This document shows, one piece after another, positions 930 through 60,106 of a DNA stretch of 64,000 bases. Every line of letters begins with the position of its first letter. Within the stretch, counting starts at the first letter, position 1. Origin of the DNA: Thermoplasmatota archaeon (GTDB taxonomy: Archaea > Thermoplasmatota > Penumbrarchaeia > Penumbrarchaeales > Penumbrarchaeaceae); contig JBLIRK010000007.1 of the NCBI GenBank assembly GCA_048569615.1, forward strand, positions 1,174 through 65,173. Direction: 5' to 3'. The translations under genes were made by a program, and so were the position numbers. Under the pieces are notes generated by a model that worked only from the letters and a program-made list of their open reading frames with translations, had not been told where the DNA came from and searched no databases.

Positions 930-1328
930 TTGGCGAAGAGGAGCTACAAGGACATTAACCTCTATTCCTGCATAGTCCTGAACCTCCTCTCATCGGCCAT
1001 GGAGATAGACCTGTCCCAGAAAGACCTCAAGGATAAGATCGACCTGATAATGCTCAAGGAGAGGGAGGGTCTCTCCAAATCGGAGATCATGCATCACATT
1101 AGGTCTAATCACAACATGACATCACGCATCCTGGAACATCTCGAGGAGCAGGGATGTGTCGAAGTTGTGAAGGATGAAAAGGGTTATTCGGTCCTGCCGA
1201 CCAGGGAAGGCATTCTTCATGTAATGGAGTTCAACAAGTTCTATGCCTCGATCTATTCCAATCAGATAGAGGAGCATTACAGATATCTGGGGCTTCCCGC
1301 TTGGTACAGAAAGTTCTCAATGGGTTAA
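930..1328 (+). CDS. Winged helix-turn-helix protein (putative transcription regulator)
   Basis: TTG start after GGAGG; LSKSEIMHHIRSNHNMTSRILEHLEEQGCVEVVKDEKGYSVLPTREG is a typical wHTH helix-wing-T(x)xG pattern. Confidence 0.7.
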   Translation: MAKRSYKDINLYSCIVLNLLSSAMEIDLSQKDLKDKIDLIMLKEREGLSKSEIMHHIRSNHNMTSRILEHLEEQGCVEVVKDEKGYSVLPTREGILHVMEFNKFYASIYSNQIEEHYRYLGLPAWYRKFSMG

Positions 1329-2539: not shown

Positions 2540-5500
2540 TCACTCCTCGATGTCGAACTCATCACTCTGCCTTTGCTTCTTCAGCAGGAAATATCCAATG
2601 GTGAACAGCCCGCCGATCACGACTATGATAAACGGGAGCCAAGGTCCCGGTGAGCCGTCATCCGATCCTCCTCCGGGCTCCAGGTTCTCGAGCACTATCA
2701 CACCCATATCGTACTCGCTGGTGGCCATTATGGATACGACCTTTGAATACGGCTTGTATCCATCAACTAAGATTGTCACTGTGTAATCTCCCGGAGGAAC
2801 CCATATCTCGAAACTGCCGTAACCATCCGTTCTGTCCGTATGGTTCCCTATGCTGACCAGGGCGTTCTGGACCTTTCTGTCCTTGCTATCTATGACGAAC
2901 CCATGGACCCTTATGAGATTTCCGCGGGGCAGGACAGTGAATTCCCAGGAGTAGGGGCCCATGAAATTCCCTGCGGCATCGGAGGCGAACAGGGTAACCG
3001 TATAGGTCAGACCCACTGTCAGATCGGCGTCCGGAACGAACTCAAGCCTGGTTCCGTTGTTGAGTATCTCGAGAGTTCCTTTTACTTCCGGTGTTATTGT
3101 GAGGTCGATCCCGGAAGCTTCCACCGGCTCCCCGAAATCAACATATATCACTGCATCCGGAGGCACCTCCCTCCCCAAGGGCCCTGCATCCAGAACCGAA
3201 GGCGCCGTCCTGTCAACCGTGAAATGGAGGATGGTTGTTCCGTTCCTCCCGCCCACGTCCCATGCTCTTACCATGAATACATGGTTCCCTTCATCAAGGA
3301 GGGGGGAAAAGCAGCTGAGGTCCGAACCGACGTTGATCCAGCTGCCAAGGTCAAGGTTGTACTCGATGAAGTCGATCATCGATCCCGCGGAATGGACCGA
3401 CCACCTGAACTCAACGGTTTCGTTCCTAACGAAAAGGCCGGATGGATCGGTTATCTCCACGACCGGAGGAAGGACATCGATATCCAGGGTAATATTATCC
3501 AATGCGGTAAGTCCCTCCCCCGTAGTGAGCCTGAGATGGATATCGAGAAGCCCGTTTTCCAGACCGGCCATCTCGTATGTGGTTGTATTTCCTATGTTAA
3601 GCCAGCTTGTGTTGCCGAGCCTTATTTCGAATCCCAAGAGCGTTCCATTCTCGAGTGCATAGTCCCAGGTCAACGTGATATTGTCAACGGTAGATCTAGA
3701 GCCCTCGAGGGGATAGGTTATCCACACTCTTGGCTGTCCCAGAGGTTTCGGGGTCAGTACTTGGAAGTTGTTGCTTCTCGAGCTCTCGCCTGCCAGATTT
3801 ACCGCAGTTACCTCATAGGTGTATAGATTGTCGGGGAGCAGTCCCGAATCGCCATATGCGGTCTGCGGGAAAGGAACCTCGGCCAGCCGCTCCTCGATAT
3901 CGAGATGGGAGCGGTAGATCCTGTAATGTGTCAAGGGGGAGCCGCCGTCCCACGTTGGAGGAAGCCATGAGAGGTTGCAATAGTACCGGCCTGACATTCC
4001 GGTTAAAGAGCGGGGAGCCGTTGGAGGAAATATGTCCGGAGGGACCGATACCGAGATCGGACCTGCAGCTTCTCCTTCCACCGGCCAGCTGAAAGCGGAA
4101 AGCCAGTAGGTGTAATCGAGACCGGGGCCCACTTCCGTGTCATTGAATCTTACGGTGAAGGCCGAAAGGTTCCTGTAGATCTCCCTGGGCCCGCTTCCAT
4201 TCTGCCTGTAGAGCCTGTATCCTGCGAAAGGAGGATCGCCAACATCGGAGGGAGGCAGCCAGGCGAGGGAAACAAAGTATCTGCCCTCCTCGGCAGAAAA
4301 CGAGAGCGGTGGTCCGGGAGGCACCGGGATGAAGCTCGATATGGGGAAGGGATCCGAATTGGAGCCTCCGTCGAGCTGGTAAGGGTTGTCAACTATCCCG
4401 TCCTTGTTATCGTCGGGGGTCCTCCAATCGAACCAGGTGTTGCCTCTGTCATTGTAATACCAGGAGTTTGAATTCCCGGAATCATAGCCCTGTATGTTGA
4501 GAGCGTAGTAGGTATCGGTGGAGCCTCTGTTGTACATCAGAATATTGTCGTTGATCCGGTTCAGGTAACCTGAAACGCTGATTCCGTATCCTATGCAGTA
4601 GGAGATGTTGTTGTGGGAAATGGTCTCATGCCGGGACCTGGACCCTAGATTTATTCCGATATCATCGGGGAAGGTGATCCCATTGCCATCCACGGTATTG
4701 TTGGAGGAGAAATCCAGGTTGATCCCCCATATACCTCCGGATATTTTGTTCCCCGAAACGATATTGCGGGAAGCCGAAAGGTCCGCATACGGATTCGATC
4801 CGAAAAATACATCTCCTCCGTTTATCTCGATCCCCGTGTATCTGTTGCCAATTGTATTGTCGAGGACAGAATTGTGGCCGCACCTGCCGATCAAGATGCC
4901 CGACCCGCCAAAACCGTAGATATCGTTTTCGAAGATCGTATTGTTGGATGGTCCGTCCTTCAGAGATATCGCATATCCCTGCTCGTCGGTGAACCTGTTG
5001 CCGCTTATGTTGTTCCAGCGGGAGACCTCGGAGATCATGATGCCGTTGGGATTGGTCAGAATGTGATTGTCGTAAAAGGTGCAGTTGTCCCCGTATTCCA
5101 TTGTCAAACCGCACCATGAATTGGACCTCAGTTCTGTCCCGTTCACCCTGATCCCATTCACGTTCCTTAAAAAAAGTCCGTTGTAATTATCTATGAGCTG
5201 GCACCCCTCAACTGAAGCACGGCTGACATTCACAAGGGCTATCCCGCTCTGCCAGTAGTATGTGTCCCAGCTCCCGGAAGAGTTGTGAACCAGGCAGCTC
5301 CTGATAATGAAGCTGTAGGTGACATTCCCGATATAGATACCCGAACCTGCTCCTCTTGCAAAAATCTGGAAATCAGAGAGTATGAACGGGTCGTTCTGGG
5401 AGCCGTCCCCGGGCCATCCTTCGGCCGTCGAGATGTTCTCCATCTCGCCGTCATTGTTTATCCTGATGGGGGAATGTACGATCCATGTTGAGAATGCCCC

Positions 5501-5593
5501 CGAGGTAGAGCTCTCGGCGTCGTCTGGCAAGAGCAATTCGGTTGCTGATAAGGTCAAGGCCACCAGCAGGAGAAAAGCGGTCGTATTTCTCAT
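2540..5593 (-). CDS. Cell-surface protein: signal peptide, NosD/CASH-type beta-helix, 2 Fn3, Ig-like (Big/SbsA-like), carboxypeptidase-regulatory-like domain, C-terminal TM, short acidic tail
   Basis: Start moved to ATG 5593 (MRNTTAFLLLVAL signal peptide, GGGAG RBS). N-x-I-x-x-N beta-helix repeats; Fn3 motifs LAWLPP..YRLYR and LSWLPP..YRIYR..YTYEVTAVN; TM WLPFIIVVIGGLFTIGYFLLKK. Confidence 0.85.
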   Translation of the reverse strand: MRNTTAFLLLVALTLSATELLLPDDAESSTSGAFSTWIVHSPIRINNDGEMENISTAEGWPGDGSQNDPFILSDFQIFARGAGSGIYIGNVTYSFIIRSCLVHNSSGSWDTYYWQSGIALVNVSRASVEGCQLIDNYNGLFLRNVNGIRVNGTELRSNSWCGLTMEYGDNCTFYDNHILTNPNGIMISEVSRWNNISGNRFTDEQGYAISLKDGPSNNTIFENDIYGFGGSGILIGRCGHNSVLDNTIGNRYTGIEINGGDVFFGSNPYADLSASRNIVSGNKISGGIWGINLDFSSNNTVDGNGITFPDDIGINLGSRSRHETISHNNISYCIGYGISVSGYLNRINDNILMYNRGSTDTYYALNIQGYDSGNSNSWYYNDRGNTWFDWRTPDDNKDGIVDNPYQLDGGSNSDPFPISSFIPVPPGPPLSFSAEEGRYFVSLAWLPPSDVGDPPFAGYRLYRQNGSGPREIYRNLSAFTVRFNDTEVGPGLDYTYWLSAFSWPVEGEAAGPISVSVPPDIFPPTAPRSLTGMSGRYYCNLSWLPPTWDGGSPLTHYRIYRSHLDIEERLAEVPFPQTAYGDSGLLPDNLYTYEVTAVNLAGESSRSNNFQVLTPKPLGQPRVWITYPLEGSRSTVDNITLTWDYALENGTLLGFEIRLGNTSWLNIGNTTTYEMAGLENGLLDIHLRLTTGEGLTALDNITLDIDVLPPVVEITDPSGLFVRNETVEFRWSVHSAGSMIDFIEYNLDLGSWINVGSDLSCFSPLLDEGNHVFMVRAWDVGGRNGTTILHFTVDRTAPSVLDAGPLGREVPPDAVIYVDFGEPVEASGIDLTITPEVKGTLEILNNGTRLEFVPDADLTVGLTYTVTLFASDAAGNFMGPYSWEFTVLPRGNLIRVHGFVIDSKDRKVQNALVSIGNHTDRTDGYGSFEIWVPPGDYTVTILVDGYKPYSKVVSIMATSEYDMGVIVLENLEPGGGSDDGSPGPWLPFIIVVIGGLFTIGYFLLKKQRQSDEFDIEE

Positions 5594-5817
5594 GTCGCTC
5601 CCTTTTCTGCATCTAACTGACTGGGGGGTATAAAAGAATATTCCCGGGAGTCCGGACACACATGTACATGAGAGCTTTAAATAATCCTACCTGTGTTTTT
5701 TTTCCTACCTTGAGCAGGAGGCTGTCAGGGGTCTCGGAGAGAGAAGATTCAGCTGTTTTTCATTGATTTGATTCTCTATGATAAACATTGATCCGACTCC
5801 GATCCAATGGGAGGGAT

Positions 5818-8800
5818 TCAGTACCTTCCGGTGATGCGGAGGATCCTGTCCTGCAGATCTCTTTTATCGCTGTCAAGGAGAATGGTCTTGGCGGCATTTA
5901 TCTCGTGCATCTTCTTGTGGGCTTCCTCCTCGTTGAAATCCTCCCCGTGCATGGCCCTGTCCGGATGATATTTTGCCGCCAGGTTCCGGTAGGCTTTCTT
6001 TATCTCCTTTTGTGAAACTGTCCTCGACACACCTAGAGTTTCGTAGGCATCCACCTGGTCGATCTTGGTAGAGACATCGAAATGTCTGAGTATCTCCAGC
6101 ATATGCTCCCTGTCCTCCTCGGAAATGTAATGCTTGTCATGATGCCGCTTGATGAGGAAGACTCCGATCATGAAGGCGATAAGAAGTGAGACCAGCACAA
6201 CGGCCGTTATTGCTATGATCATCGGCGTATCACTGCCCGAGTCCTTCGATGGTATTGTCAACAGATTTATCGTTCCCAAAGATGTGGTCCTGCCAGCCGT
6301 TATGGTGACGGTGCCGTTGTATTCCTGGTATCCATAGCGGGTGATGTTCAGCGGGTACGTTCCCATATGATATGAGATATTGAACCGTCCGTTCCCGTCC
6401 GTCCTGTCGGAAGCGAGGCCAGCAAGGTTCACTTTTATTCCCACCATGGGAGCTCCGAACTCATCAACAACGATACCCTCGATGTATCCTATGTCAGTTG
6501 TCGTGAAGTTCCAGCTGTGGGGTCTCAGCCTGTTGCCGGCGGTATCCGAACCTCCCACCTCGACCCTGTAAGTGGTCGCGTATTCAAGCTCTCCATCAAT
6601 AATGTAGGTGACCTGCCCGTCGCGCACCGATAGCTCCCCATCCACACCGGGGATCTTGACTTCGATCGAATCGGGATCGAGCAACTCGGAAAATATCAAC
6701 CAGATGTCCTCGTCAACAGCGACCTGCTCACCCGCTGGAAGAAACTGGATCACGTAGGGCTCGGAAGTGTCGATCGTAAAGGAGACCCTCTGAATGATAA
6801 TGTTCCCCGCTCTGTCGTAGGCGGACACGCTGATCTGGTGGGTTCCGTCGGAGATATTGTTGAAGCTGACCGGCATATTGGATTTATATTCAAACGGGAG
6901 GTTTGAATCCATCTGGACCATGAACCTTGAGATCCCGGAAAGGGAATCCTCCGAAGTGAAGGAAAGTTCGAAGGTGGAGGTGTTGAGGTATGAATCCTGG
7001 AGCGGGAAGAGTATATCAAGAGAGGGTTTTGACTTGTCCATCAGGATATCCTTTGTCACCTGTGCGTTGTTCCCGCCCTGATCACGGACCATTACGGAAA
7101 AATGATGAAGACCCTCGGTATGAAGCTGCACCACAAGCTCTGTCACCCTCCCCCGGTCCACCCAATTACCTTCATCTAGACGGGTGAATACCGTGGAGAC
7201 ACCCGAGGTCGAGTCGGCCATCTGCCATTCCACGAGAAGGGAGTCCAGATTGGTATGGGTCAGCTCGGGTTGGTTGAACGTCACGAAGGGGGAGACAGTA
7301 TCCAGGGTGAACCTGACATCATCCTCGCCCCTGAGATCAAGGGCATTCCATGCTTCCACCGAAATTGTATGGTAACCCTCGGAATCCAGCTCGATCTCGA
7401 CGATCTCGGACGGCAGGTATTCCTTCCCTTCCTCATCGTCAACATACACTATTATCCTTGTCAGATCGCTCTCCCTCTCTATTATATTCCATTCCAATCG
7501 GAGGGTGGTGGTATTGACCACGCTTTCGGTCTTCGGGTAGGTTATCGTTATCTCCGGAGGTGTTGTATCAAAAACGATGGATACGGGATCGGAGAGGGGT
7601 CCTTCTCCCGCCTCGGTGATCGCTGATACCATGTAGCTGTACATCAATCCGGGAAATACCTCTCCATCGGTGTAGAAGACCGTATTGGTCTCACTTGTGG
7701 ACCTTATCTCCCAGTCTCCGCCCGATTCGCTCCTGTAGATCCTGTACATGTCGATATTCAGTCCGTAATGCTTGACCGCTCCCTTCCAGGAGAGCCTGAT
7801 CCCGCTTTGACCTGCGGATGCCTCCAGGTCCTTTGGCGGACCCGAGAGGTCCATGGGGGAGCGGAGGAGGGGGAGCGGATCGAAATTGGTACCGCCGGCG
7901 ACGGGATACGGCTCGTCAACGATGCCGTCATCGTCAAGATCGGGGGAGGTCCAGTCGGTCCAGTGATTTCCTCTCTGTGTATCGGAATCGAAGAATTTCA
8001 CAACATTGCCGAGGTCTGCGGCCTGCACGTTCCAGGAGGCGAAGTTGAAGGTCGCACCGTTGTTCTTCGAGAAGGTGTTGTTCCATATCCGAACTCCATC
8101 ACATTCCGATGGGGATGAATAGTAGTAGAGCTGGAGTGGAGCCTTGTTGTTGTAGAACAGATTGCCGGAGATGGAACAGTCCCTGGACCTTTGTATGGTC
8201 ATTGGTTCATCATTCTCTTTTACGAAGCAGTTCGACACGGTCGTATTATCGGCATAATCAAGATTGATCCCTACCGCCGTTTCCCCACCGATGATGTTTA
8301 TATCCTTTAAAACGGTTCTATCGGATTCTCCCACTGCTATTCCATAAGAAAGATCCTGGCCGGTTACCATACCTCCGACCATGAAGCAGTCGAATGATTC
8401 GCTTATACTGATTCCTACTTGCACTGCCCATGTATTCATATCGATCATAGCAACATTGGAAGATCGTATTAGGTAAACACCCGTAAAAGCATTAACCACC
8501 GTGTTCTCCATCAATGTGATGTTCGAGGAAGAGGACAACAGGATTCCACGTTGCGTGTTTTTATCCATCCAGCACTTTTCAATATTAAGCCAGGAGCAGG
8601 AGTGGATGTATATCCCTAACTTGTTATCGTTCATGTAGCTCTCCTTTATGGTGCCGTTTCGGCAGTTGTTCAAATAAAGGGCTTTTCCGGTAAACCAATT
8701 CTGATCGTCGGTCGCACCTGTAAAAGTGCAGGATCGGACCTCGAAATGAAGGGAGACATCGGAGATGCTCAGGCATGTGTCGCCCCCACTGGCATCTATC

Positions 8801-9027
8801 TCGAGGTTGTCGATCGTTACCGGATCATTCTCACTTCCGGTCCCGTTCCAGTTGTAAGTCGTTTTCTTCAACAGAAGATCATCATTCCCGACTATGGTGA
8901 TCGGGGAGCTCTGAAGCCTCGTATCCGATGGAACGTCCTCGGCTGAGGACCTCAAGTTTACTGAGCCGAGGCCGATCAACAAGATGACCGCAGCGGTCAA
9001 TAATGCCCGGGAAAGGCTCTCCTTCAT
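5818..9027 (-). CDS. Cell-surface beta-helix/Fn3/Ig protein with single TM and cytoplasmic C-terminal J-domain
   Basis: Signal peptide MKESLSRALLTAAVILLIGLG; same ectodomain modules as its neighbours; TM IIAITAVVLVSLLIAFMIGVFLI followed by KRHH; tail DAYETLGV..EIKKAYRNLAAKYHPDR..MHEINAAKTILLDSDKR (HPD codons at 5959-5967). Confidence 0.9.
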   Translation of the reverse strand: MKESLSRALLTAAVILLIGLGSVNLRSSAEDVPSDTRLQSSPITIVGNDDLLLKKTTYNWNGTGSENDPVTIDNLEIDASGGDTCLSISDVSLHFEVRSCTFTGATDDQNWFTGKALYLNNCRNGTIKESYMNDNKLGIYIHSCSWLNIEKCWMDKNTQRGILLSSSSNITLMENTVVNAFTGVYLIRSSNVAMIDMNTWAVQVGISISESFDCFMVGGMVTGQDLSYGIAVGESDRTVLKDINIIGGETAVGINLDYADNTTVSNCFVKENDEPMTIQRSRDCSISGNLFYNNKAPLQLYYYSSPSECDGVRIWNNTFSKNNGATFNFASWNVQAADLGNVVKFFDSDTQRGNHWTDWTSPDLDDDGIVDEPYPVAGGTNFDPLPLLRSPMDLSGPPKDLEASAGQSGIRLSWKGAVKHYGLNIDMYRIYRSESGGDWEIRSTSETNTVFYTDGEVFPGLMYSYMVSAITEAGEGPLSDPVSIVFDTTPPEITITYPKTESVVNTTTLRLEWNIIERESDLTRIIVYVDDEEGKEYLPSEIVEIELDSEGYHTISVEAWNALDLRGEDDVRFTLDTVSPFVTFNQPELTHTNLDSLLVEWQMADSTSGVSTVFTRLDEGNWVDRGRVTELVVQLHTEGLHHFSVMVRDQGGNNAQVTKDILMDKSKPSLDILFPLQDSYLNTSTFELSFTSEDSLSGISRFMVQMDSNLPFEYKSNMPVSFNNISDGTHQISVSAYDRAGNIIIQRVSFTIDTSEPYVIQFLPAGEQVAVDEDIWLIFSELLDPDSIEVKIPGVDGELSVRDGQVTYIIDGELEYATTYRVEVGGSDTAGNRLRPHSWNFTTTDIGYIEGIVVDEFGAPMVGIKVNLAGLASDRTDGNGRFNISYHMGTYPLNITRYGYQEYNGTVTITAGRTTSLGTINLLTIPSKDSGSDTPMIIAITAVVLVSLLIAFMIGVFLIKRHHDKHYISEEDREHMLEILRHFDVSTKIDQVDAYETLGVSRTVSQKEIKKAYRNLAAKYHPDRAMHGEDFNEEEAHKKMHEINAAKTILLDSDKRDLQDRILRITGRY

Positions 9028-9077
9028 CCACTGGACCCAAGTGCCAGATTCTAATTAAAAGTTATCAGAACGGTCGC

Positions 9078-12000
9078 TCACGTCTGTTCCGATATCTCAT
9101 CATCAAGGAGGCTCATATCGTACATCTGCCTGCGCACGGGGTTCAGGAGCACGGTCTTTGCATCGTTAATCTCCCTCATGAGATCGGCTATCTCGTCTAG
9201 CTCCATATCCTCTCCCCTCGCAGCCATCCTGTCCGGATGGTATAGGGACGCCATCTTTCTGTATGCCGCCCTGATCTCCTGGGATGTCGCATGCCTGTCG
9301 ACTCCGAGAAGGGTGTAGTAATCACGGTTCTGGTCGAAATATTCGATCTCGAATTCGGCATCCTCCTCGAAGTTCTCCCATCTGACCTTGGGCGGAGGCT
9401 CTTCCACAACGACATAGAAGGCCTCCTTTGTCACGGAACTTCTCCTCCTCTTTATTATGACGAGGATGAGAACCACCGCTATGATCGTGAGGAGGATCGG
9501 AACTGCGGCAATTGCAACTATCAGTATCGAGGAGCCCGATCCCTCCTTCTTCGTCATACTGATCACATCCATCTCCACAGTTCTTCCAGCCTCCACTGTC
9601 ACCACGAACTCCATCATATCGTATCCGTTCTTTCTGATGGTCACCGTGTAAACACCCGGGGGAGCTTCGATCGAAAAACTTCCGTCCGGACCCGTGACTG
9701 TCCCGGCTCCGTTGGAAAGAGCGACCTCCGCACCCTGGACGGGTCTGCCCCTGTTGTCCTTCACTATGCCGGAAATCGCCCCCAGGTACAAAGTGGCGAA
9801 CTCCCAGGTATAGGTAGGGATCTGATTTCCCGCAAGGTCGAATGCCCTGAACCTTACTGTGTAATCCTGGCCGTAATCGAAATTGTCCACGAAATCCACT
9901 AATATTTTTAAGGTGCCGGATGGTCCGATGGAGTAGTCGAACTTGCTCCCGTTCCCCCACCACCGAACTCCCTCCCCATCGAATACTTCGATAAGGATGG
10001 ATTCCTCCTGGAGGGATTCCGAAACCTCAAGGACGATGGGAGCATTGATGGCCACAAGGACGCCGGACGGTGAATGGGAGATTACTTCAGGGACCGTCGT
10101 ATCAACGTATATGGTGATCTCCAGGGTCCTGACATTCCCGGCCCTGTCATATGCCATGAGTTCGATTATGTTTGGTCCTTCCGTCAGGCCTCCAACCAAT
10201 ACTCGGTCGATATAAGGTTCCAGGATCAGGTCCGCCTTGGAAGTCTTCACTCTAAAATGGTGGATGCCCGAAAGAGCGTCAGCGAACTCCCATGAGAGTT
10301 CGATCTCTGTTGTATTTATCAGATTGACCTCCCAAATATCCGGAGAAGCGAATATCAGGCCGGGAGGCTGGATATCGAAGACTATATCCATGTTGCCTTC
10401 CGCGCTGTTTCCGGCAAGGTCCTCCGCCCGAATATGAAGGGTTGTATACTGGCCCTCTATCCAGAGATCGTAGGAAGGTTCAGAGAACAGGGTGGACCAG
10501 TTATCGTCCCTGATCCTGACCCGGTATCCCTTGATGCCGCTTCGCTGGTCCTCTCCATTCCAGGAAATTCGTATGAAGTTGAGATTTACGTAGAGAGGGT
10601 TTGAACCGGAGAGATGGAGGATCGGGTCAGTATGATCGATCTCGAAGACGGTATTGACCTCAGAGACCATTGAGACATTGTTCACCCCCCTTACCCACAC
10701 AGTGTGGGAACCCTCGCTCATCTTCTTTTTGGAATGACCTGTGCTCAATCCCACCGAGGTCCACTGGCCGTCATCTATCCTGATCTCGTAGTGGTCCATA
10801 CCGCTCTCGAGGTCCTCACCTTCCCAGGTTATGAGCACATCGCTCGTATTCACCCAAGAACCCGATTTTGGAGTCAGTATCCTCAACTCGGGTTTCGAAT
10901 CATCCTTGAATCCGGATACTATCTTGGAGAGCTCGCCTTCACCGTAGGCATTCGTGGCCCGTATCCCGTAATAGTATCTGAAGCCGCCAATGACCTCCGT
11001 GTCCGAATATTCCGTGGAAGTCCTGTCGACGGCGTTGAGGAATTCAAGTCTTTCAGGTGAGCTCCCCCTGTAGATGTGGTATTGGTATATTTTACCGGTC
11101 AGACTCTTCAGGGGTTCTTCCCATCTCAGTTCGATCCTTGTGGCACCCGAAAAGCACTTAATATTTCTGGGCTCCGAAACGAGCGGATACGGCGAATGGG
11201 TCAGTGGAAAGTGATCGGCTGACCATCTTTCGGGAAGGCTGTAAACAGTGTAATCTACGATGCCGTCAAAGTCCGAGTCGGAACCCTCGACGTTGGACCA
11301 GTAGTTCCCCCTCGATGAGGTGTTCCAGCTGGTGTATCTGCCCAGGTCCTTGACCTGCCAGACCTGGGGTATGGGGTAGTAGTCGGTGCCGTTGTTCCAG
11401 ATGAAGGAATTCTCGAAGAACTGGTTGTTCTTCCCCCACTCGACGAGGATGGCTTCCCTATGGCTCTCGAGAATGAGGTTATGATCGATCCTTCCGTTAT
11501 CCACATACTTCAGACGGACGGCCTTGTTGCATTCCCTTATGAGGTTCCATTCCATTTCCAGAAAGCTGGAATCGATGATATCGATCCCGGTCTGGGAGCC
11601 CGTTATCTCGTTCCCCGTTATGACGAGTGTGTCCTCTGCGTTGGTGATGAATAGACCGGAGTTGTCCGCATCGATCGTATTGTTCATTATCCGGACATCA
11701 TGACAATAATCAAAGGCCGAACCCGTACCAGCTGAATTCATGGTATTATCCTTCAAGATCACGCCATCCACATTATGGAAACCCGGTGCTCCGCTCAACC
11801 CGCAGGTGAAATCATTCCCTTCCACCAGGATGTCCCCCCCCTCCCAGGCATACAATGAGGGCCAGAGGTCGTCGAAGGTATTTGATTCAATTCTTACGCG
11901 GGAACAGTCCGTTAACCGGATCCCATCCCCGAAAATGCTCAACTCCGAAAATTTGCAGCTCGATATCCTAAGATCCACTGTGGATATCGATTCAACCGCC

Positions 12001-13766
12001 TCTCCGTTGTTGTAGAAATCGGTCCCTTCGATAACGAAACCGCCGCAGTACTTGGTCCACACACCGTTGTCACATCCCCTCAGGTCCGAGGATGCGAGCT
12101 CGATGTTGTGGGAATACAATGCCGCGATTCCGCATGCGGAGGAAACCACGTCGATCCCGGACATCCTGATGTTCTCGCAATCGAAGATGAAGAAGGGAGC
12201 ATCGGCAGGGTACATCGTCATGTCCGAAAATTGGATGTTGCTGGACTGGTACATAATGATCTGGTTGGTATCGGGCGATATCTCTGCGTTTTCAAGGTCG
12301 ATGTTTTTATAGAATTCAATGGGCTTATCCCTGAAAATGTTGTCCTTCATCGCGAGAGTTGATAGCAGGGGGTCGAGCGAGCGGTATTGGTGATATTGAA
12401 AATCCTCGAAGGCCAATCCCTTACCATATAATGTATTCCCTATCAGCGTAATATTTTCATTTTTATAATGAAATAACAGATCGTATTCCGAATCTGAATT
12501 GAAAAAATTGGAATCAAAGCTAACTTTGTCCGACCAATGAACATAAAGCGCATCGGCAAAATATGAACGAAAAACACTGTTCTTGACCTGAATGTTGTTC
12601 CCATGGAAGATATCCAAACTTCTTGATGATGAGCGGATGTTGGAAAGTTCAATGAGGACATCATCGGAAAAACTGACCTCCAATCCATACAGGTCCGATA
12701 GGATCGACACTTCCGAGAGGGTTATTCTCCCTGATTCGAGGATTGCGATCCCAGAAGGATAGGCACCGTTAATTTCGGTATCATATACGACCATGTTCTC
12801 CGAATATTGGATCTCCATTCCGGACCATTCGGGTCTCAAGGTAAACAATACAATCGCGCAGTTTGCGATACCGTTGGCCTTGATCCCGTAACCGCAATCC
12901 AGGATCTGGCCGCTTTGTAATTCCAGATCATGGGAATCCGTCAATTCCATCCCGAAATCATGATAGGAAATGGAATCCAATTCCATCATGACATACTTTG
13001 AATCTTTGATCGACACTCCGGTTCCGGTAACTTCTTCCGGGTCCCCCGTTATGTCATTCCCGAAGGTTGTCAAATTGGAGCAATTATCGATCTGGAATCC
13101 CACGCCCGTGTCATTTACCCAGGATTCACTGATCAGGCTGTTATTGCAATCCAGCAGATGAAAGCCCCACTGACAGTAATCTATAGATGATGTCCTGCAA
13201 ATGGATGTTCCTTCCGATTCCTCTATCCAGATGCCCTTCCAATAAGAATTCGTGATATTGCATCCATCGATATCAGTCAAATAAGAGTTCAGAATGTATA
13301 TCCCTACTGCCTGGGCTTTGATCATTGTTGCTGTTATTTGGGGACCGCGACCGCATCTTTCGGCATAGATCCCTACGGGACCCACATCAATTACGCAGTT
13401 CGCTATGGAGATGTCCATTGAATTGCTGATGAAGATACCGTTGTCCTTCGAATTCTTGAGGGTGCAGTTTTGAACGGATATGCTGTAGGTTGTGTTTGCG
13501 ATGGCTATGCAGAATGAACTCCCCCCTGCATCTATTGTGTAATTGCTGATCAGAATGGGATCCTGTTGGGAGCCGCTCCCGGGCCATCCCTCGGAAGATG
13601 CCGTGTTAAGGAGGTCGGCATTCCCATCGATATCTATGACGGAGTGCGGATTACTACCTGCTGAGGGGAAATCGATTCCGCTTCCATCGATATCGAGCAC
13701 GCCAATGAAGCTGGCACTGAACAATATGATAACTAATGCTGCAGCAGGCCGCCTCGGTATCCTCAT
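9078..13766 (-). CDS. Large cell-surface beta-helix/Fn3/Ig protein (1562 aa) with single TM and cytoplasmic C-terminal J-domain
   Basis: Signal peptide MRIPRRPAAALVIILFSASFIG; long beta-helix; Fn3 LRWEEP..YHIYR..YYYGIRATN; TM ILIVAIAAVPILLTIIAVVLILVII followed by KRRR; tail DYYTLLGV..EIRAAYRKMASLYHPDR..MREINDAKTVLLNPVRRQMYD (HPD codons at 9231-9239). Confidence 0.9.
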   Translation of the reverse strand: MRIPRRPAAALVIILFSASFIGVLDIDGSGIDFPSAGSNPHSVIDIDGNADLLNTASSEGWPGSGSQQDPILISNYTIDAGGSSFCIAIANTTYSISVQNCTLKNSKDNGIFISNSMDISIANCVIDVGPVGIYAERCGRGPQITATMIKAQAVGIYILNSYLTDIDGCNITNSYWKGIWIEESEGTSICRTSSIDYCQWGFHLLDCNNSLISESWVNDTGVGFQIDNCSNLTTFGNDITGDPEEVTGTGVSIKDSKYVMMELDSISYHDFGMELTDSHDLELQSGQILDCGYGIKANGIANCAIVLFTLRPEWSGMEIQYSENMVVYDTEINGAYPSGIAILESGRITLSEVSILSDLYGLEVSFSDDVLIELSNIRSSSRSLDIFHGNNIQVKNSVFRSYFADALYVHWSDKVSFDSNFFNSDSEYDLLFHYKNENITLIGNTLYGKGLAFEDFQYHQYRSLDPLLSTLAMKDNIFRDKPIEFYKNIDLENAEISPDTNQIIMYQSSNIQFSDMTMYPADAPFFIFDCENIRMSGIDVVSSACGIAALYSHNIELASSDLRGCDNGVWTKYCGGFVIEGTDFYNNGEAVESISTVDLRISSCKFSELSIFGDGIRLTDCSRVRIESNTFDDLWPSLYAWEGGDILVEGNDFTCGLSGAPGFHNVDGVILKDNTMNSAGTGSAFDYCHDVRIMNNTIDADNSGLFITNAEDTLVITGNEITGSQTGIDIIDSSFLEMEWNLIRECNKAVRLKYVDNGRIDHNLILESHREAILVEWGKNNQFFENSFIWNNGTDYYPIPQVWQVKDLGRYTSWNTSSRGNYWSNVEGSDSDFDGIVDYTVYSLPERWSADHFPLTHSPYPLVSEPRNIKCFSGATRIELRWEEPLKSLTGKIYQYHIYRGSSPERLEFLNAVDRTSTEYSDTEVIGGFRYYYGIRATNAYGEGELSKIVSGFKDDSKPELRILTPKSGSWVNTSDVLITWEGEDLESGMDHYEIRIDDGQWTSVGLSTGHSKKKMSEGSHTVWVRGVNNVSMVSEVNTVFEIDHTDPILHLSGSNPLYVNLNFIRISWNGEDQRSGIKGYRVRIRDDNWSTLFSEPSYDLWIEGQYTTLHIRAEDLAGNSAEGNMDIVFDIQPPGLIFASPDIWEVNLINTTEIELSWEFADALSGIHHFRVKTSKADLILEPYIDRVLVGGLTEGPNIIELMAYDRAGNVRTLEITIYVDTTVPEVISHSPSGVLVAINAPIVLEVSESLQEESILIEVFDGEGVRWWGNGSKFDYSIGPSGTLKILVDFVDNFDYGQDYTVRFRAFDLAGNQIPTYTWEFATLYLGAISGIVKDNRGRPVQGAEVALSNGAGTVTGPDGSFSIEAPPGVYTVTIRKNGYDMMEFVVTVEAGRTVEMDVISMTKKEGSGSSILIVAIAAVPILLTIIAVVLILVIIKRRRSSVTKEAFYVVVEEPPPKVRWENFEEDAEFEIEYFDQNRDYYTLLGVDRHATSQEIRAAYRKMASLYHPDRMAARGEDMELDEIADLMREINDAKTVLLNPVRRQMYDMSLLDDEISEQT

Positions 13767-13890
13767 ACCTCCCGCTATTAATGACCTTCCAAAGGTCTAT
13801 TAAAATTTGTGGTGCACATATGATAAGCCATATAGGTCTTTTCACGGAGCCATCGTTAATGTTTTATCCTAACGATACCTTGGAAGCCCG

Positions 13891-30720: not shown

Positions 30721-30732
30721 TGGACCGCACCT

Positions 30733-55539: not shown

Positions 55540-56244
55540 ATGGAGCGTCCCGTTATCCACATCAACTGCGCGGCCACCGTGGACGGGAAGATCTCAAAAC
55601 CGGACGGATCCCGCCTCCGCATCTCGGGCGAATGGGACATGGGGAGGGTTCACCGGCTGAGGGCGTCCCTTGGGGCAGTCCTGGTAGGGTCCGGGACCAT
55701 CATCAAGGACGACCCGAAGCTCACGGTCAAGGAAGTCCATGTTCCGGATCCTCCATCCATTTTCAAGGTTGTGATCGACGGAAGGGGGCGAATTCCTTCC
55801 GCTTCGAGGTTCCTAAGGACCAGAGGCCATTCCATAATCGCAACAAGGAGCGACTGCTCCCCAGATTGGAAAAGAAATATTCTGGAATCCATCGAGGACG
55901 AGGGCCTCGATGCTCGGATCATGGAATTCGAACCCTCTGAGAACACCATCGACATCGAAGTCCTTCTCAGGAAGCTTGCGGACCTGGGGGTGGACGGCAT
56001 CCTTGTCGAAGGGGGAAGCAGGACCATATGGGAATTCGTTTCCGGGGGGTTTTTCGACAAGTTCACCATCTATCTGGGTCCTATGGTGGTCGGAGGGAAC
56101 GGTCCCACGGTCATGTCGGGTCCTGGATTTGATGAGGCCCCGCTCAATGTGAAGATCATGAATGTGCAGGAAACCCCCGACGGAGGTCTGCTTGTCGAGA
56201 TGGAGCCTTCCGGTCAATATGCGAACCTGCTCCTTTCACCCTGA
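55540..56244 (+). CDS. 2,5-diamino-6-ribosylamino-4(3H)-pyrimidinone 5'-phosphate reductase (RibD-C/Rib7 type)
   Basis: [53 protein letters not shown]; real start is ATG 55540 inside track ORF 54943..56244. Confidence 0.9.
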
Positions 56245-57332
56245 ACCTCGAGGAGCTTCTTAATCGCCTTCTTCTCCCTGATACCGGGATGCTTCGGGAC
56301 CTCGACCCTTACCTGGACGTAAAGATCCCCGAACCGGTTGGGATTGTGGATGTTCGGCATTCCCTTGCCCTTGATCCTGAGAATGGTATTGGGCTGCGTC
56401 CCCGCGGGCACCTTCATCTCCAAGGGTCCGTAGAGGGTGGGAACCTCCACCTTGGAGCCGAGGACCGCCTGGGGGTACGTTATCGAGATCTCGCACCTTA
56501 TATCGTTGCCGGCCCTTTCGAAGAACTTGTGAGGTTTCACTCCCACGGTCACGAACAGGTCCCCGGCGGGTGCCCCCTTCTCTCCTTCGTCCCCAAGACC
56601 GGAGATCCTGAGTCTTGTGTCCGTATCCACTCCCGGAGGGATGTTGATGGATTTCTTCAGCGTCTCCCGCACCTTCTTCTTGCCCCGGCATTTCTTGCAG
56701 GGATCGCCGATGACCTGTCCCTCGCCGCTGCACCTCGGACATGCCCTTGTTGTGACATACTGCACCGGGCCCAGGTTCTTGACCATCCTGAGGGAACCGG
56801 ACCCGTGGCACTCCGGGCATTCCTGGGGCTCTTCACCCTTCTCGGATCCTGTACCCAGGCATTTGGGGCATCTTATGAGATGGGCCACATCGAGGTCCTT
56901 CTCAACTCCAAGGGCGGCCTCTTCAAGGGTTATATTCACCGCCGCAACCCTGTCATCACCGGGTGCCGGGCCCCTTCTCCTGAAGGAACGCTCCTCGAAG
57001 GGATCCCCTCCGCCGAAGAAGGAACCGAATCCGCCTCCGAAGGACCTCATGAACATCCTAAGTGCCTCATCGAGGTCAACGTGGTGGTACTGGTAATTGG
57101 GCATACCGCCTTCCTCGGCTGCGAATCCGAACTGGTCGTACTGGGACCTCTTATCCTCGTCCGAGAGCACCTCGTAGGCTTCGGTCACCTCGGTGAACTT
57201 CTTTGCAGACGATGGGTCATCCGGATTCCTGTCGGGATGATACTTGAGGGCCAGCTTCCTGTATGCTTTCTCGATATCGGACTTGGTAGCGTCCTTCTGG
57301 ACGCCCAGAACCTCGTAGTAGTCCTTCTTCAT
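56214..57332 (-). CDS. dnaJ: Chaperone DnaJ (class A)
   Basis: [17 protein letters not shown]-rich region, four CxxCxGxG-type repeats, C-terminal substrate-binding domains. Confidence 0.97.
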
Positions 57333-57366
57333 GGTAAGCACTGCCCTCAAGCATCATATTCAGCGT

Positions 57367-59205
57367 TTATTCGGCATCCTCTGCATCGACGTCGATGTAG
57401 TCCTCGTCCGAATCCTTTGTCGTCGATGCCTGCTCTTCATCCGCGTCCATATCCGATCTCTTCGTTCCGGAGGCCTGCTGGTACATCTTGGCAAAGAGCT
57501 TCTGGGAGGCCTCGGAAAGCTCCTCGGTCTTCTCCTTCATATCCTCGACGTCGTCTCCCTTTGCTACCTCCTCCACCTCCTTGAGGAGCTTCTTGACCTC
57601 CTCGACCTCGTCGGGATCCAGCTTGTCCTTGTGGTCCTTGATTGCCCTCTCGGTGGCAAATACAAGCGATGTGGCGTTGTTCCTCGCCTCGGCAAGCTCC
57701 AGCTTCTTCTTGTCGTCGTCGGCAAACCTGTCGGCGTCCTCCATCATCCTCTCGATCTCGTCATCCGAGAGAGCTCCGGTACCTGATACGACGATGTTCT
57801 GGGAATTGCCGGTCGCCAGGTCCTTCGCCGTCACATGCACGATGCCGTTGGCATCTATCTCGAAGGTGACCTCGATCTGCGGAATGCCTCTCGGCGCCGG
57901 CGGGATACCGGTCAATGTGAATACGCCTAGTGTCTTGTTGTCCATCGCCATGGGACGCTCGCCCTGCAGAACATGTATCTCCACCTGCGGCTGGTTGTCC
58001 GAGGCCGTGGAGAAAATCTTCGATTTCTTGGTGGGTATCGTGGTATTCCTGTTGATAATCCTTGTCATCACCCCTCCCAGGGTCTCTATACCGAGGGAGA
58101 GCGGAGTAACGTCGAGGAGCACCATGTCCTTTCCAACCTCTCCGGACAGAACTCCAGCCTGGATGGCTGCCCCTATCGCGACGCATTCGTCAGGATTGAT
58201 GTTCTTGGTCGGGTCCTTCTTCATTATCTCTTTGATCTTGGACTGGACCATTGGAACCCTGGTGGACCCCCCCACCAGGAGGATCTTGTCTATGTCCTTG
58301 GGATCGAGCTTGGCATCCTTCATGGCCTGCTTCACGGGTTTGATGGTTTTCTCCACGAGATCGCTAATCAGCGTCTCGAACTGGGACCTGGATAGCTCGA
58401 TATCAACATGCAGCGGTCCATCGTCGCTCTGGGCTATGAAGGGGATGCTGATCTGTGTGGTTGGCGTGCCGGAAAGCTCGATCTTGGCCTTCTCCGAAGC
58501 ATCCTTGAGCCTCTGGACCGCCTGCTTGTCCTTGAGCAGGTCCACCCCGTGGTCCTTCTTGAAATCATCGGCGATCCATTCCATGACCCTCCTGTCGAAA
58601 TCGTCGCCACCGAGGTGGTTGTTCCCCGATGTCGCCTTGACCTGGAAGACGCCGTCGCCGATCTGAAGTATGGATACGTCGAAGGTACCTCCGCCCAGGT
58701 CGTAGACCAGGATGGTCATGTCCCCTTCCTTGTCCAGGCCGTAGGCGAGTGCGGATGCCGTGGGCTCGTTGATGATCCTCTTGACCTCGAGCCCTGCGAT
58801 CTTGCCTGCATCCTTCGTTGCCTGGCGCTGGGCATCCTCGAAATAGGCAGGAACGGTGATCACCGCCTCGGTGACCTTCTCTCCGAGATAGGCCTCCGCA
58901 TCCTCCTTGAGCTTCTGGAGGACCATGGCGGATATCTCCTGGGGAGTGTACTTCTTTCCGGCCATCGCCACCTTGGTCTTCTGGCCCATCTTCCTCTTGA
59001 TGGAAGCTATCGTGTTCTCCGGATTGGCAACAGCCTGCCTCTTGGCAAGCTCGCCTACCAGCCTGTCGCCCTTCTTCGTGATCCCGACCACAGACGGGGT
59101 GGTCCTGGCTCCTTCCTTGTTCGGTATGACCACCGGCTGACCGCCCTCCATGACGGCAACAACCGAGTTCGTCGTTCCGAGATCTATTCCAATTACTTTT
59201 CCCAT
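57367..59205 (-). CDS. dnaK: Chaperone DnaK (Hsp70)
   Basis: [55 protein letters not shown]; lacks the proteobacterial N-terminal insertion. Confidence 0.99.
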
Positions 59206-59224
59206 TCATATCACCTCGTTACCG

Positions 59225-60106
59225 TTATTTCTTCTTCCTGCCGCCGTCTTTGGTATTACTTTCAACAGGCGGTTTCTTGTTGACTATGACCTGGGAAGGC
59301 CTGACGGCTTTTCCCTTGTAGATGTACCCCTTTCTGATCTCCTCCGCCACCATATCATCCTCGAGATCGCTCCTCTCCACGAAGCCTACCGCTTCGTGAT
59401 ATTCGGGATCGAAGGGCTGGCCCTTCGAGGTTATCGGAGAGATGCCTATCCGGTTGAACATGTTCTTTACCTGGAGCTCCACCATCTCGATGCCCTTGAG
59501 GATCGACCCATGATTGGTCTCGGACCCGACGGGTCCTTTTATCGATCCCTTTGCGTATGAGAAGGTATCCAGCACTTCGATGAGGCCAAGGGCGACCTCC
59601 TGGATCCTGGTGTCAGCCAGGGCCTCCTTCTCCTCCTCGTGCCTCCTCTTGATGTTTCTGAAATCCCTCTGGAGCAGGTGGACCCTGTCCTCCAGCGAGG
59701 ACCTCTCGACCGATACCCTGGAAAGTTCGGCCTTCATCCTCTCCAGCTCCTGCTCCATGGATTCGAGAGATATCGACATCTGGGCCTCCTCGACGGGGCC
59801 TGCCTTCTCATCCACTGGGGAGCCGGCCTCCGGATCCCTCTTTCTTAGGATCACTTCAAGAACTCCCTGGGAAAAGGTGACGGATATCCTGTCAGGGTCA
59901 GGTTCGAAGGGGAGCGCCTGTATCGTGCTGAACTTCCCGCGGCTGCCGTCGGCATCCAGCTTGAGTATGTCGCCGGAAACCGCCATCCTGATGGCATCCT
60001 GTGGCACTCCGGGTAGTTCGACGGTCAGCCTGACGCCTCCGTCTAGCTCCGAAATGTCAGAAAGGGGCTCCCTCGTGTTCTTGTCCTCTCCTGGCATCTT
60101 TATCAT
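59225..60106 (-). CDS. grpE: Nucleotide exchange factor GrpE with N-terminal HSP20/alpha-crystallin-like domain
   Basis: Residues about 12-90: EPLSDI..LTVELPGV..LP..DPD..FSQGVLEVILRK (HSP20-like). C-terminal DFRNIKRR..VLDTF..FDPEYHEAV..KGY..AVRPSQV (GrpE). First gene of grpE-dnaK-dnaJ. Confidence 0.88.
   Translation of the reverse strand: MIKMPGEDKNTREPLSDISELDGGVRLTVELPGVPQDAIRMAVSGDILKLDADGSRGKFSTIQALPFEPDPDRISVTFSQGVLEVILRKRDPEAGSPVDEKAGPVEEAQMSISLESMEQELERMKAELSRVSVERSSLEDRVHLLQRDFRNIKRRHEEEKEALADTRIQEVALGLIEVLDTFSYAKGSIKGPVGSETNHGSILKGIEMVELQVKNMFNRIGISPITSKGQPFDPEYHEAVGFVERSDLEDDMVAEEIRKGYIYKGKAVRPSQVIVNKKPPVESNTKDGGRKKK

What the first reader, a model, noticed from the sequence alone, without database searches (positions are those of the whole stretch)
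5818..13766. Two tandem giant surface proteins with intact cytoplasmic J-domains: possible transmembrane receptors that recruit Hsp70
Seen: both ORFs have a signal peptide, a large beta-helix/Fn3/Ig ectodomain, one TM followed by basic residues (KRHH, KRRR), then a full J-domain with helix-I (D/A)YxxLGV, helix-II EI(K/R)xAYR, intact HPD(R) and helix-III INxAK. Established: HPD J-domains stimulate DnaK ATPase, and known membrane J-proteins (DjlA, Sec63, Pam18) lack a large adhesin-like ectodomain. Inference: this N-out/J-in topology couples an extracellular binding module to cytoplasmic DnaK. The J-domain is made after the ectodomain is exported, so it is unlikely to assist its own translocation; signalling, remodelling of membrane complexes, or localising DnaK at contact sites are the alternatives. 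dnaK-dnaJ-grpE are encoded in the same window. I am not aware of this architecture being characterised.
Basis: partly seen in the sequence, partly recalled or inferred. Interest (0 to 1): 0.9.

Follow-up and report, generated by a model that had tools for sequence, protein, structure and literature searches.

The report
Archaeal surface proteins with cytoplasmic J-domain tails
Two neighbouring genes of an uncultured sediment archaeon encode large stalked cell-surface proteins whose short inner end is an intact J-domain, the module that switches on the Hsp70 chaperone DnaK. They belong to an undescribed family in which this chaperone-recruiting tail is the best-conserved part.

Summary
**Observation: confirmed in every detail.**
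- ORF A (5818-9027, minus strand, 1069 aa) and ORF B (9078-13766, minus strand, 1562 aa) share one layout: signal-like N-terminus, NosD-type beta-helix head, fn3/Ig-like/CarboxypepD_reg stalk, one strong TM helix, a basic cluster, and a C-terminal J-domain.
- The J-domains score 63.5 and 57.5 bits on Pfam PF00226 (cut-off 27.8).
- The AlphaFold2 tail model (pLDDT 86.5) best matches the J-domain bound to DnaK in 5NRO.
- grpE-dnaK-dnaJ lie in the same window.
- Independent assemblies from four studies span all junctions.

**Family.**
- An exhaustive profile search finds about 60 cluster representatives with the same TM, basic cluster and C-terminal HPD J-tail.
- The tail sits on at least four ectodomain types, on a polytopic membrane protein, and on minimal TM-only forms.
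- Every member with a source name is Thermoplasmatota or "Euryarchaeota".
- HPD was present in every member analysed (it was a selection criterion in the wider set).
- Between orthologues the J-domain is 59-78% identical and the ectodomains 30-41%.
- The B-then-A tandem is kept in all four closely related genomes examined.

**Reading.**
- These are type-I membrane-anchored class-C J-proteins that recruit and fire DnaK under the membrane.
- The most likely purpose is assembly, maintenance or quality control of giant surface structures. A signalling role is not excluded.
- No curated family model or paper describes this architecture.
- Function is inferred, not shown.

The parts
5818..9027 (-). 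ORF A, 1069 aa: type-I surface protein with cytoplasmic J-domain tail
8941..9027 (-). A residues 1-29: signal-like N-terminus MKESLSRALLTAAVILLIGLGSVNLRSSA
7933..8910 (-). A residues 40-365: right-handed beta-helix head (NosD/Beta_helix), ending in a DxDxDG-type acidic motif
   Evidence: AlphaFold2 pLDDT above 90
6253..7863 (-). A residues 389-925: stalk of beta-sandwich domains (fn3, Big_7/13/5, CarboxypepD_reg)
6148..6222 (-). A residues 936-960: single TM helix
6052..6147 (-). A residues 961-992: basic cluster (KRHHDKH) and conserved amphipathic juxtamembrane helix EDREHMLEILRHFD
   Evidence: 59-81% identical between orthologues
5821..6051 (-). A residues 993-1069: J-domain; HPD at 5959-5967
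9078..13766 (-). ORF B, 1562 aa: larger paralogue with the same layout
9528..13682 (-). B residues 29-1413: ectodomain (long NosD beta-helix, fn3, Ig-like domains, CarboxypepD_reg)
9453..9527 (-). B residues 1414-1438: single TM helix
9324..9452 (-). B residues 1439-1481: KRRR cluster, hydrophobic motif AFYVVV, acidic spacer, second motif FEIEYF abutting the J-domain
9081..9323 (-). B residues 1482-1562: J-domain; HPD at 9231-9239
2540..5659 (-). Paralogue C (1039 aa): same ectodomain plan and TM, 13-aa tail, no J-domain. The orthologous position is conserved in L001 and L090
13891..16485 (+). Paralogue D (864 aa), divergent: beta-helix ectodomain, TM, 8-aa tail, no J-domain
56214..60106 (-). 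grpE-dnaK-dnaJ operon: the presumed Hsp70 partner system

Best explanation
A and B are type-I, single-pass membrane proteins. A beta-helix head sits on a stalk of Ig-like domains outside the cell. A 110-125-residue tail inside the cell ends in a functional class-C J-domain, held 30-45 residues below the membrane. By the established J-domain mechanism, the HPD loop docks on ATP-bound DnaK and triggers hydrolysis, so DnaK clamps onto whatever polypeptide segment is nearby. The tail therefore acts as a fixed, membrane-proximal DnaK recruiting and firing site. The most likely clients are the cytoplasmic segments of these proteins themselves, of their partner (B with A), or of neighbouring giant surface proteins. 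The likely purpose is assembly, maintenance or quality control of a surface structure rather than general protein folding. Shown here: the architecture, the topology signals, J-domain integrity and fold, strong purifying selection on the tail, the family's spread, and its gene contexts. Inferred: DnaK recruitment, from established J-domain function. Speculative: the identity of the client and the purpose.
For: 1. J-domain integrity. Pfam scores are 63.5 and 57.5 bits against a 27.8 cut-off. The closest solved sequences are E. coli DnaJ J-domains. The AlphaFold2 tail model has pLDDT 86.5 and its top fold hit is 5nro_B, TM-score 0.88. In the hand-picked alignments HPD and the Y..L, AYR and N..K..L positions are invariant (14 tails, 32 tails); all 62 classified members carry HPD, which was a criterion of that classification.
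2. Selection. The J-domain is 59-78% identical between orthologues and the A-type linker 59-81%, against 30-41% for the ectodomains.
3. Topology. There is a signal-like N-terminus and one TM. K/R counts average 4.06 after the TM and 1.88 before it; 42 of 49 members have more after and none has fewer. The tails have no N-glycosylation sequons and a cytoplasm-like composition, while the ectodomains are N/S/T-rich.
4. Partner. dnaK, dnaJ and grpE are in the window, and DnaK keeps the [11 protein letters not shown] docking segment.
5. Portable module. About 60 representatives carry the tail, on NosD+Ig, Ig-only, NosD+unknown-stalk and an unrecognised ~690-aa ectodomain, on a polytopic protein (P0110) and on minimal TM-only forms (P0082, P0092). 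Tail J-domains cluster on a tree, and one clade is not rejected (AU p = 0.51).
6. Context. The B-then-A tandem is kept in 4 of 4 close genomes (window, L001, L004, L090). The ~690-aa subfamily always sits directly upstream of a 2200-2500-aa giant adhesin with a pilin-type signal, followed by two pilin-like genes.
7. Precedent. DjlA shows that a membrane-tethered J-domain with intact HPD directs DnaK/GrpE to remodel cytoplasmic parts of membrane proteins (PMC11709261).
Against: No experiment or co-fold shows that these tails bind or stimulate DnaK. The client is unknown. One NosD-type member (P0054, L085/L086) stands alone among housekeeping genes, and P0011 (L002) lacks the tandem partner, so a dedicated locus is not universal. 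The minimal TM-only forms suggest the ectodomain may be irrelevant to what the J-tail does. Transcript evidence is one perfect 158-nt metatranscriptome contig, which could be DNA carry-over.
Confidence: 0.55

Rival explanations
1. Outside-in signalling receptor. Ligand or contact at the ectodomain changes clustering or exposure of the J-tail. DnaK is then directed to a cytoplasmic signalling partner, as DjlA does with IgaA-RcsD, or is titrated away from a stress regulator.
For: DjlA is a precedent for J-domain-dependent control of a signalling complex. The ectodomain resembles adhesion and receptor ectodomains built of tandem Ig/fn3 domains. The conserved, subfamily-specific linkers could be partner sites. 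Earlier scan notes report other archaeal surface giants with cytoplasmic cassettes; these are leads only.
Against: No signalling gene is conserved next to family members. Fic is present in 3 of 4 close genomes and absent from L090, L002 and L085. Fast-evolving ectodomains of several unrelated types, plus ectodomain-less forms, argue against a specific ligand-sensing role as the common function.
Confidence: 0.18
2. Generic membrane anchor for DnaK. The tail merely concentrates DnaK at the membrane for general membrane proteostasis or turnover, comparable to eukaryotic DNAJB12/HLJ1-type membrane J-proteins. The ectodomain is just one of several carriers.
For: The same tail occurs on minimal TM-only proteins and on a polytopic protein. 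B-type and 690-type linkers combine a basic flank with a 4-5-residue hydrophobic core, which resembles DnaK's peptide preference (own knowledge, Rudiger et al. 1997). Such a site could park ADP-DnaK on the tail.
Against: It does not explain why two paralogues keep the tail while their neighbours C and D consistently lack it, why the B-A pair is conserved, or why the ~690-aa subfamily is locked to a pilin-like adhesin operon.
Confidence: 0.15
3. Cis-acting export chaperoning. The J-domain recruits DnaK to keep the protein's own giant ectodomain unfolded before post-translational translocation.
For: Archaea lack SecA, so a cytosolic holdase for very large secreted proteins is conceivable (general knowledge).
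Against: The J-domain is the last 70-80 residues made, after the signal peptide, the ectodomain and the TM helix have left the ribosome. The tail-less paralogues C and D and the 2064-aa giant are of the same kind and manage without it.
Confidence: 0.05
4. Artefact or dead domain: a mis-assembled or mis-called fusion, or a degenerate J-like domain without Hsp70 function.
For: None found.
Against: Independent contigs from four studies span all junctions. There are dozens of independent homologues. Every member examined carries HPD (invariant in the alignments), and the tail is the most conserved region.
Confidence: 0.02

Closest known systems
DjlA (E. coli membrane-anchored DnaK co-chaperone)
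   Same: N-out/C-in single-pass topology with the J-domain at the cytoplasmic C-terminus. It has no DnaJ-type client-binding domains. Its function depends on membrane tethering and an intact HPD (PMC11709261).
   Different: DjlA has only a few periplasmic residues, no signal peptide and a TerB-like domain between the TM and the J-domain. A and B have 900-1400-aa ectodomains and their own linkers. The NCBIfam DjlA model scores 34.5 and 32.4 bits against a 162 cut-off, through the J-domain only. DjlA is bacterial; this family is archaeal.
Eukaryotic membrane J-proteins with a cytosolic J-domain (DNAJB12/B14, yeast Hlj1)
   Same: A J-domain held at the cytosolic face of a membrane recruits Hsp70 for membrane-protein quality control (own knowledge; the DNAJB12 J-domain 2ctp is among the sequence and fold hits).
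   Different: Opposite orientation (N-terminal J-domain, small lumenal part), eukaryotic, and no adhesin-like ectodomain.
Sec63 / Pam18 (translocon-associated J-proteins)
   Same: A membrane-embedded J-protein positions Hsp70 right at a membrane (own knowledge; Sec63 appears as a weak sequence hit).
   Different: Their J-domain faces the trans side, where the chain emerges, and Hsp70 pulls the chain in. Here the J-domain is on the cis (cytoplasmic) side of an exported protein.
TopJ (Mycoplasma pneumoniae terminal-organelle J-protein)
   Same: A J-protein dedicated to an adhesin-bearing surface organelle in a wall-less prokaryote (PMC4923136).
   Different: TopJ is a soluble cytoplasmic protein with an N-terminal J-domain. 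The NCBIfam TopJ model scores 51 and 58 bits against a 300 cut-off. This is analogy only.
NosD-like / right-handed beta-helix surface proteins of archaea (tail-less paralogues C and D)
   Same: Same ectodomain plan: beta-helix head, fn3/Ig stalk, CarboxypepD_reg, C-terminal TM.
   Different: Those end a few residues after the TM. TIGR04247 NosD scores 64 and 116 bits against a 300 cut-off, so none of these is a true NosD.

Membership tests
J-domain proteins (PF00226) | Match to the J-domain profile above the curated cut-off | tested here: met
   A 63.5 bits, B 57.5 bits, cut-off 27.8
J-domain proteins (PF00226) | HPD tripeptide in the loop between helices II and III | tested here: met
   HPD at A 1021-1023 and B 1510-1512. 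It is invariant in the 14-tail and 32-tail alignments and lies in the loop in the model. HPD was a selection criterion for the 62-member set.
J-domain proteins (PF00226) | Four-helix J fold | tested here: met
   AlphaFold2 pLDDT 86.5; best PDB match 5nro_B, TM-score 0.88, rmsd 2.0 A
J-domain proteins (PF00226) | Stimulates Hsp70 ATPase | not testable with these tools
   Needs purified tails and DnaK. Only indirect support: the basic helix II is kept and DnaK keeps the KRIINEPT segment.
Class A/B DnaJ (type I/II Hsp40) | G/F region, CXXCXGXG zinc-finger domain, DnaJ_C client-binding domains | tested here: not met
   No PF00684 or PF01556 in A or B, although both are found in the window's own DnaJ. 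A and B are therefore class C.
DjlA | NCBIfam NF006948 equivalog cut-off; short periplasmic N-terminus; TerB-like domain | tested here: not met
   34.5 and 32.4 bits against 162, J-domain only. There is a large ectodomain with a signal peptide and no TerB hit.
TopJ | NCBIfam NF037946/TIGR03835 cut-offs | tested here: not met
   51 and 58 bits against 300; 39 and 51 bits against 512
NosD (nitrous-oxide reductase maturation) | TIGR04247 cut-off | tested here: not met
   64 and 116 bits against 300. Only the beta-helix fold is shared.
PGF-CTERM / archaeosortase-processed surface proteins | PGF motif and TM helix at the extreme C-terminus with a very short basic tail | tested here: not met
   No PGF or PEF motif in the last 200 residues, and 110-125 folded residues follow the TM
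Sec63/ERdj-type (trans-side J-domain) | J-domain on the extracytoplasmic side | tested here: not met
   Positive-inside bias and composition place the tail in the cytoplasm. This is a prediction, not an experiment.

The most novel reading that the evidence does not exclude
The J-tail makes these proteins Hsp70-coupled transmembrane devices. DnaK, fired by the tail and clamped on the juxtamembrane linker, would exert entropic pulling on the TM helix, or would gate tail-tail contacts between A and B. In this way ATP energy or information would be passed across the membrane, either to reposition, retract or extract a giant surface protein, or to report its state. That would be the first Hsp70-linked surface receptor or actuator in prokaryotes, evolved in archaea that acquired Hsp70 by horizontal transfer.
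Probability: 0.15. Interest if true: 0.9.

Novelty: new variant of a known kind. Interest (0 to 1): 0.7.

Why it matters
Class-C J-proteins determine where and on what Hsp70 acts. Known prokaryotic examples are few (DjlA, HscB, CbpA-like proteins, phage Rki). For archaea, the surveys I could read discuss only the canonical DnaJ and the thaumarchaeal DnaJ-Fer.

This finding adds a whole family of about 60 clusters at 50% identity in which archaea wired Hsp70 to the inner end of cell-surface proteins. The tail is conserved about twice as strongly as the exposed part.

It offers a concrete, testable handle on two questions: how uncultured Thermoplasmatota build or maintain giant surface structures, and what specialised jobs horizontally acquired Hsp70 took on in archaea. 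The tails are small, soluble and easy to test in vitro with HPD mutants.

Tried and rejected
- **Whole-genome tools.** I could not count J-proteins genome-wide, place the organism below phylum level, or test co-occurrence with dnaK.
- **GTDB scan.** A related-loci scan of genome contigs with the tail profile was swamped by ordinary bacterial DnaJ genes. It gave no information on this family.
- **Word-based search with B's tail.** It found only the L001 orthologue.
- **Transcripts.** Six metatranscriptomes from the same studies were listed. In the four that I laid on the locus, I found only one perfect 158-nt contig inside B and a 32-nt edge match. This is too little to claim expression.
- **Whole-protein fold search.** It returned only generic tandem Ig/fn3 stalks.
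- **Fic as a functional partner.** Fic is a canonical class II enzyme, but it is present in only 3 of 4 close loci and in none of the distant ones. Inherited synteny explains that equally well.
- **Literature.** Six searches and five papers read gave no description of this architecture. Barriot et al. 2020 on bacterial JDPs is not in the library.
- **Rejected readings.** NosD function, S-layer Kustd1514 membership (31 bits against 1400), PGF-CTERM sorting, and an extracellular J-domain.
Full report
**1. What is there**

The window's minus strand carries two adjacent ORFs exactly at the stated coordinates. A is 5818-9027 (1069 aa) and B is 9078-13766 (1562 aa). They are separated by 50 bp, and neither has an internal stop.

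Pfam finds the same plan in both:
- a right-handed beta-helix region (NosD/Beta_helix)
- an fn3 domain
- several bacterial Ig-like domains
- a CarboxypepD_reg domain
- at the very C-terminus, a DnaJ J-domain (A 993-1058, 63.5 bits; B 1482-1550, 57.5 bits; cut-off 27.8)

NCBIfam hits to DnaJ, DjlA, TopJ, HscB and CbpA models all run through the J-domain only and lie far below the family cut-offs.

Each protein has a signal-like N-terminus and a single very hydrophobic helix near the C-terminus, followed by KRHHDKH in A and KRRR in B.

Two neighbouring paralogues share the ectodomain plan and the TM helix but stop 13 and 8 residues after it. These are C (2540-5659, minus strand) and D (13891-16485, plus strand). 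A and C are collinear at 26% identity right through the TM helix. A and B are 28% identical over about 1000 residues, including the tail.

grpE, dnaK and dnaJ lie at 56214-60106 on the minus strand.

**2. Is the J-domain real?**

- By sequence, the closest solved structures are the E. coli DnaJ J-domains, including chain B of 5NRO, the DnaJ-DnaK complex (E about 1e-12).
- An AlphaFold2 model of A's tail, built on 32 family tails, has mean pLDDT 86.5. It shows a TM helix, a juxtamembrane helix, and then the four-helix J pattern with HPD in the II-III loop.
- The model's best PDB fold match is 5nro_B (TM-score 0.88 on the target, rmsd 2.0 A, 48% identity).
- Helix II keeps its basic face: K, K, K and R at the positions of DnaJ R19, R22, K23 and K26 (alignment; numbering from my own knowledge).
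- The family has a 5-residue insertion after HPD and a characteristic IN.AK.ILL helix III.
- The window's DnaK is a canonical Gram-positive-type Hsp70. It keeps the [11 protein letters not shown] segment that carries the J-docking residues R167, N170 and T173 (residue roles from Suh et al. 1998 and Kityk et al. 2018, own knowledge).

**3. Topology**

A signal-like N-terminus plus one further TM helix puts the C-terminus in the cytoplasm whether or not the signal is cleaved.

- Across 49 family members, the 15 residues after the TM helix hold on average 4.06 K/R, against 1.88 before it. 42 members have more after, 7 are equal and none is reversed.
- The ectodomains are N/S/T-rich, with 1.2-2.4 N-glycosylation sequons per 100 residues.
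- The tails have no sequons, and their composition is indistinguishable from DnaK, DnaJ, GrpE, CTP synthase and other cytoplasmic proteins of the window.
- There is no PGF-CTERM-type signal.

These are predictions, not experiments, but they all agree.

**4. Not an artefact**

The locus occurs in mangrove, marine-sediment and other sediment or soil metagenomes from at least seven studies. Contigs from four of them span every junction at 99-100% identity, with no indels or joints:
- J-domain through the TM helix of A (5901-6228)
- TM helix into the ectodomain (6118-6337)
- the A/B boundary and B's J-domain (8549-9429)
- B's TM region (9394-9604)

**5. The family**

A word-based search with A's tail found 11 proteins with the same architecture. 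All are from Thermoplasmatota MAGs, and sources name them only "NosD domain-containing" or "DnaJ domain-containing".

An exhaustive HMM search of 1.84 billion cluster representatives with a tail profile gave 162,556 J-domain hits. The top of that list is populated by proteins that match the whole profile, TM helix included, at their extreme C-terminus. Classifying the listed sequences gives 62 with the order TM, then HPD within 130 residues, then the C-terminus. Four more have a longer acidic linker.

The carriers differ:
- NosD beta-helix with fn3, Ig and CarboxypepD_reg domains (1060-1560 aa)
- Ig and CarboxypepD_reg only (about 610-750 aa)
- NosD beta-helix with an unannotated stalk (about 1250-1290 aa)
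- a class of about 690 aa with no recognisable ectodomain domain
- a polytopic membrane protein (P0110)
- minimal proteins with a few N-out residues, one TM helix and the tail (P0082, P0092)

Every cluster that carries a source name is "Thermoplasmatota archaeon" or "Euryarchaeota archaeon".

On a tree of 140 J-domains, the tail label needs 6 changes, against about 48 for shuffled labels. 49 of 53 tails fall in one clade, and a single clade is not rejected (AU p = 0.51). With only 77 columns this is compatible with one origin but does not prove it.

**6. Selection**

Between orthologues, the J-domain is 59-78% identical and the A-type linker 59-81%. The beta-helix head, the stalk and B's ectodomain are only 30-41% identical. 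The cytoplasmic end is therefore the most constrained part of these proteins. HPD was present in every member analysed: it is invariant in the 14-tail and 32-tail alignments, and it was a selection criterion for the 62-member set.

Linkers are subfamily-specific:
- A-type and P0011-like tails have an amphipathic helix (EDREQMLEILRHFD / MKEIMSGFG).
- B-type and ~690-aa-type tails have a short hydrophobic/aromatic motif directly after the basic cluster (AFYVVV, FEFYI, DFIID). After an acidic spacer, a second motif (FEIEYF, FDFDY) abuts helix I.
- A basic flank followed by a 4-5-residue hydrophobic core resembles DnaK's peptide preference (own knowledge). That makes a cis DnaK-binding site a testable idea, nothing more.

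**7. Gene context**

- The order B-like (J) then A-like (J) is kept in all four close genomes: the window, L001, L004 and L090. This holds even in L004, where the A-type protein has lost its beta-helix.
- A tail-less C-like paralogue follows in three of the four.
- More distant NosD-type members stand alone: P0011 among other surface proteins and an HSP20 gene, and P0054 among housekeeping genes.
- The ~690-aa subfamily shows one arrangement in four loci drawn from three different 50%-identity clusters. There is an FG-GAP membrane protein; two divergent cytoplasmic zinc-ribbon/coiled-coil proteins; the J-tail gene; then, immediately downstream, a 2200-2500-aa CARDB/VWA giant that starts with an archaeal class III pilin-type signal (KGVSEAVGTVLLLGISV); then two pilin-like proteins.

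In both branches, therefore, the J-tail gene is usually embedded in a locus for giant surface structures.

**8. Mechanism**

Established knowledge says that a J-domain with HPD docks on ATP-bound Hsp70 and triggers hydrolysis, which locks Hsp70 onto a nearby segment. Class-C J-proteins act by location.

DjlA shows this at a prokaryotic membrane. With a membrane tether and an intact HPD, it makes DnaK/GrpE loosen the cytoplasmic IgaA-RcsD contact, and the H233Q mutant is inactive (PMC11709261).

I therefore read A and B as surface proteins that carry their own DnaK recruiting site under the membrane. I favour clients in or next to the complex itself, for assembly, maintenance or quality control. 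The reasons are that the tail travels with particular paralogues, the B-A pair is conserved, and the ~690-aa type is tied to an adhesin operon.

A signalling role and a generic DnaK-anchor role remain open. Self-export chaperoning is unlikely, because the J-domain is the last part synthesised and the tail-less paralogues do without it.

**9. Novelty**

- No Pfam or NCBIfam model covers the tail or the whole protein.
- The main text of the 2023 survey of about 280,000 JDPs lists no such architecture.
- The 2026 and 2012 surveys of the archaeal DnaK system mention no membrane J-proteins.
- The other searches gave nothing.

I rate this a new variant of a known kind: a membrane-tethered class-C J-protein of a new, archaeal, large-ectodomain form.

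**10. Limits**

- No biochemical evidence.
- Expression evidence is minimal.
- Taxonomy is known only to phylum level.
- The GTDB scan was uninformative.

Noticed in passing
window 1325-2470 (-): A cytoplasmic class II Fic enzyme with the active site HPFTDGNGRAAR and the N-terminal inhibitory motif TTALEG lies downstream of the array. A Fic gene is also near the array in L001 and L004, but not in L090, L002 or L085.
   Followed up: partly
window 47440-53634 (-): The 2064-aa Ig-repeat giant (NPCBM_assoc/CARDB/FixG_C) is also type I. It has a TM helix at 1940-1958 and a ~106-aa cytoplasmic tail ending in a zinc-ribbon-like CPKC...CKEC. Surface giants of this organism carry different cytoplasmic tails: J-domain, zinc ribbon, or only a few residues.
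   Followed up: partly
L003 3629-12543; L087 2208-21589; L088 2584-20618; L089: A ~690-aa J-tail subfamily with an unrecognised ectodomain heads a conserved operon. The operon has a 2200-2500-aa giant adhesin with a pilin-type (class III) signal and VWA/CARDB domains, then two pilin-like proteins (one DUF7289). Opposite lie two cytoplasmic zinc-ribbon/coiled-coil proteins and an FG-GAP membrane protein.
   Followed up: partly
proteins P0082, P0092 (215-221 aa) and P0110 (408 aa): Minimal forms (tiny N-out stub, one TM helix, the same J-tail) and a polytopic membrane protein with the same J-tail nest inside the tail J-domain clade. P0074 is a soluble relative with an N-terminal J-domain and a C-terminal zinc ribbon.
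   Followed up: partly
window 9028-9077 and 13767-13890: TATA-like AT-rich boxes (TTTTAATT, ATTTTAATA) lie about 30-40 nt upstream of the A and B start codons, and GGGAGGT lies directly before B's ATG. Each gene may have its own promoter despite the 50-bp spacing.
   Followed up: no
window 57367-59205 (-): DnaK is of the Gram-positive type. Its best solved match is Geobacillus DnaK 2v7y, collinear over 511 residues. This fits the accepted bacterial origin of archaeal Hsp70.
   Followed up: no
window 27440-29587 (+): A 715-aa protein with a eukaryote-type Ser/Thr protein kinase domain (450-699) and no predicted TM helix. It is followed by an 864-aa ORF (29584-32178, +) that has no Pfam match and overlaps two minus-strand ORFs, so it may not be a real gene.
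   Followed up: no
protein P0015 (679 aa): An unrelated protein with six tandem HPD J-domains was the top-scoring hit of the tail profile.
   Followed up: no
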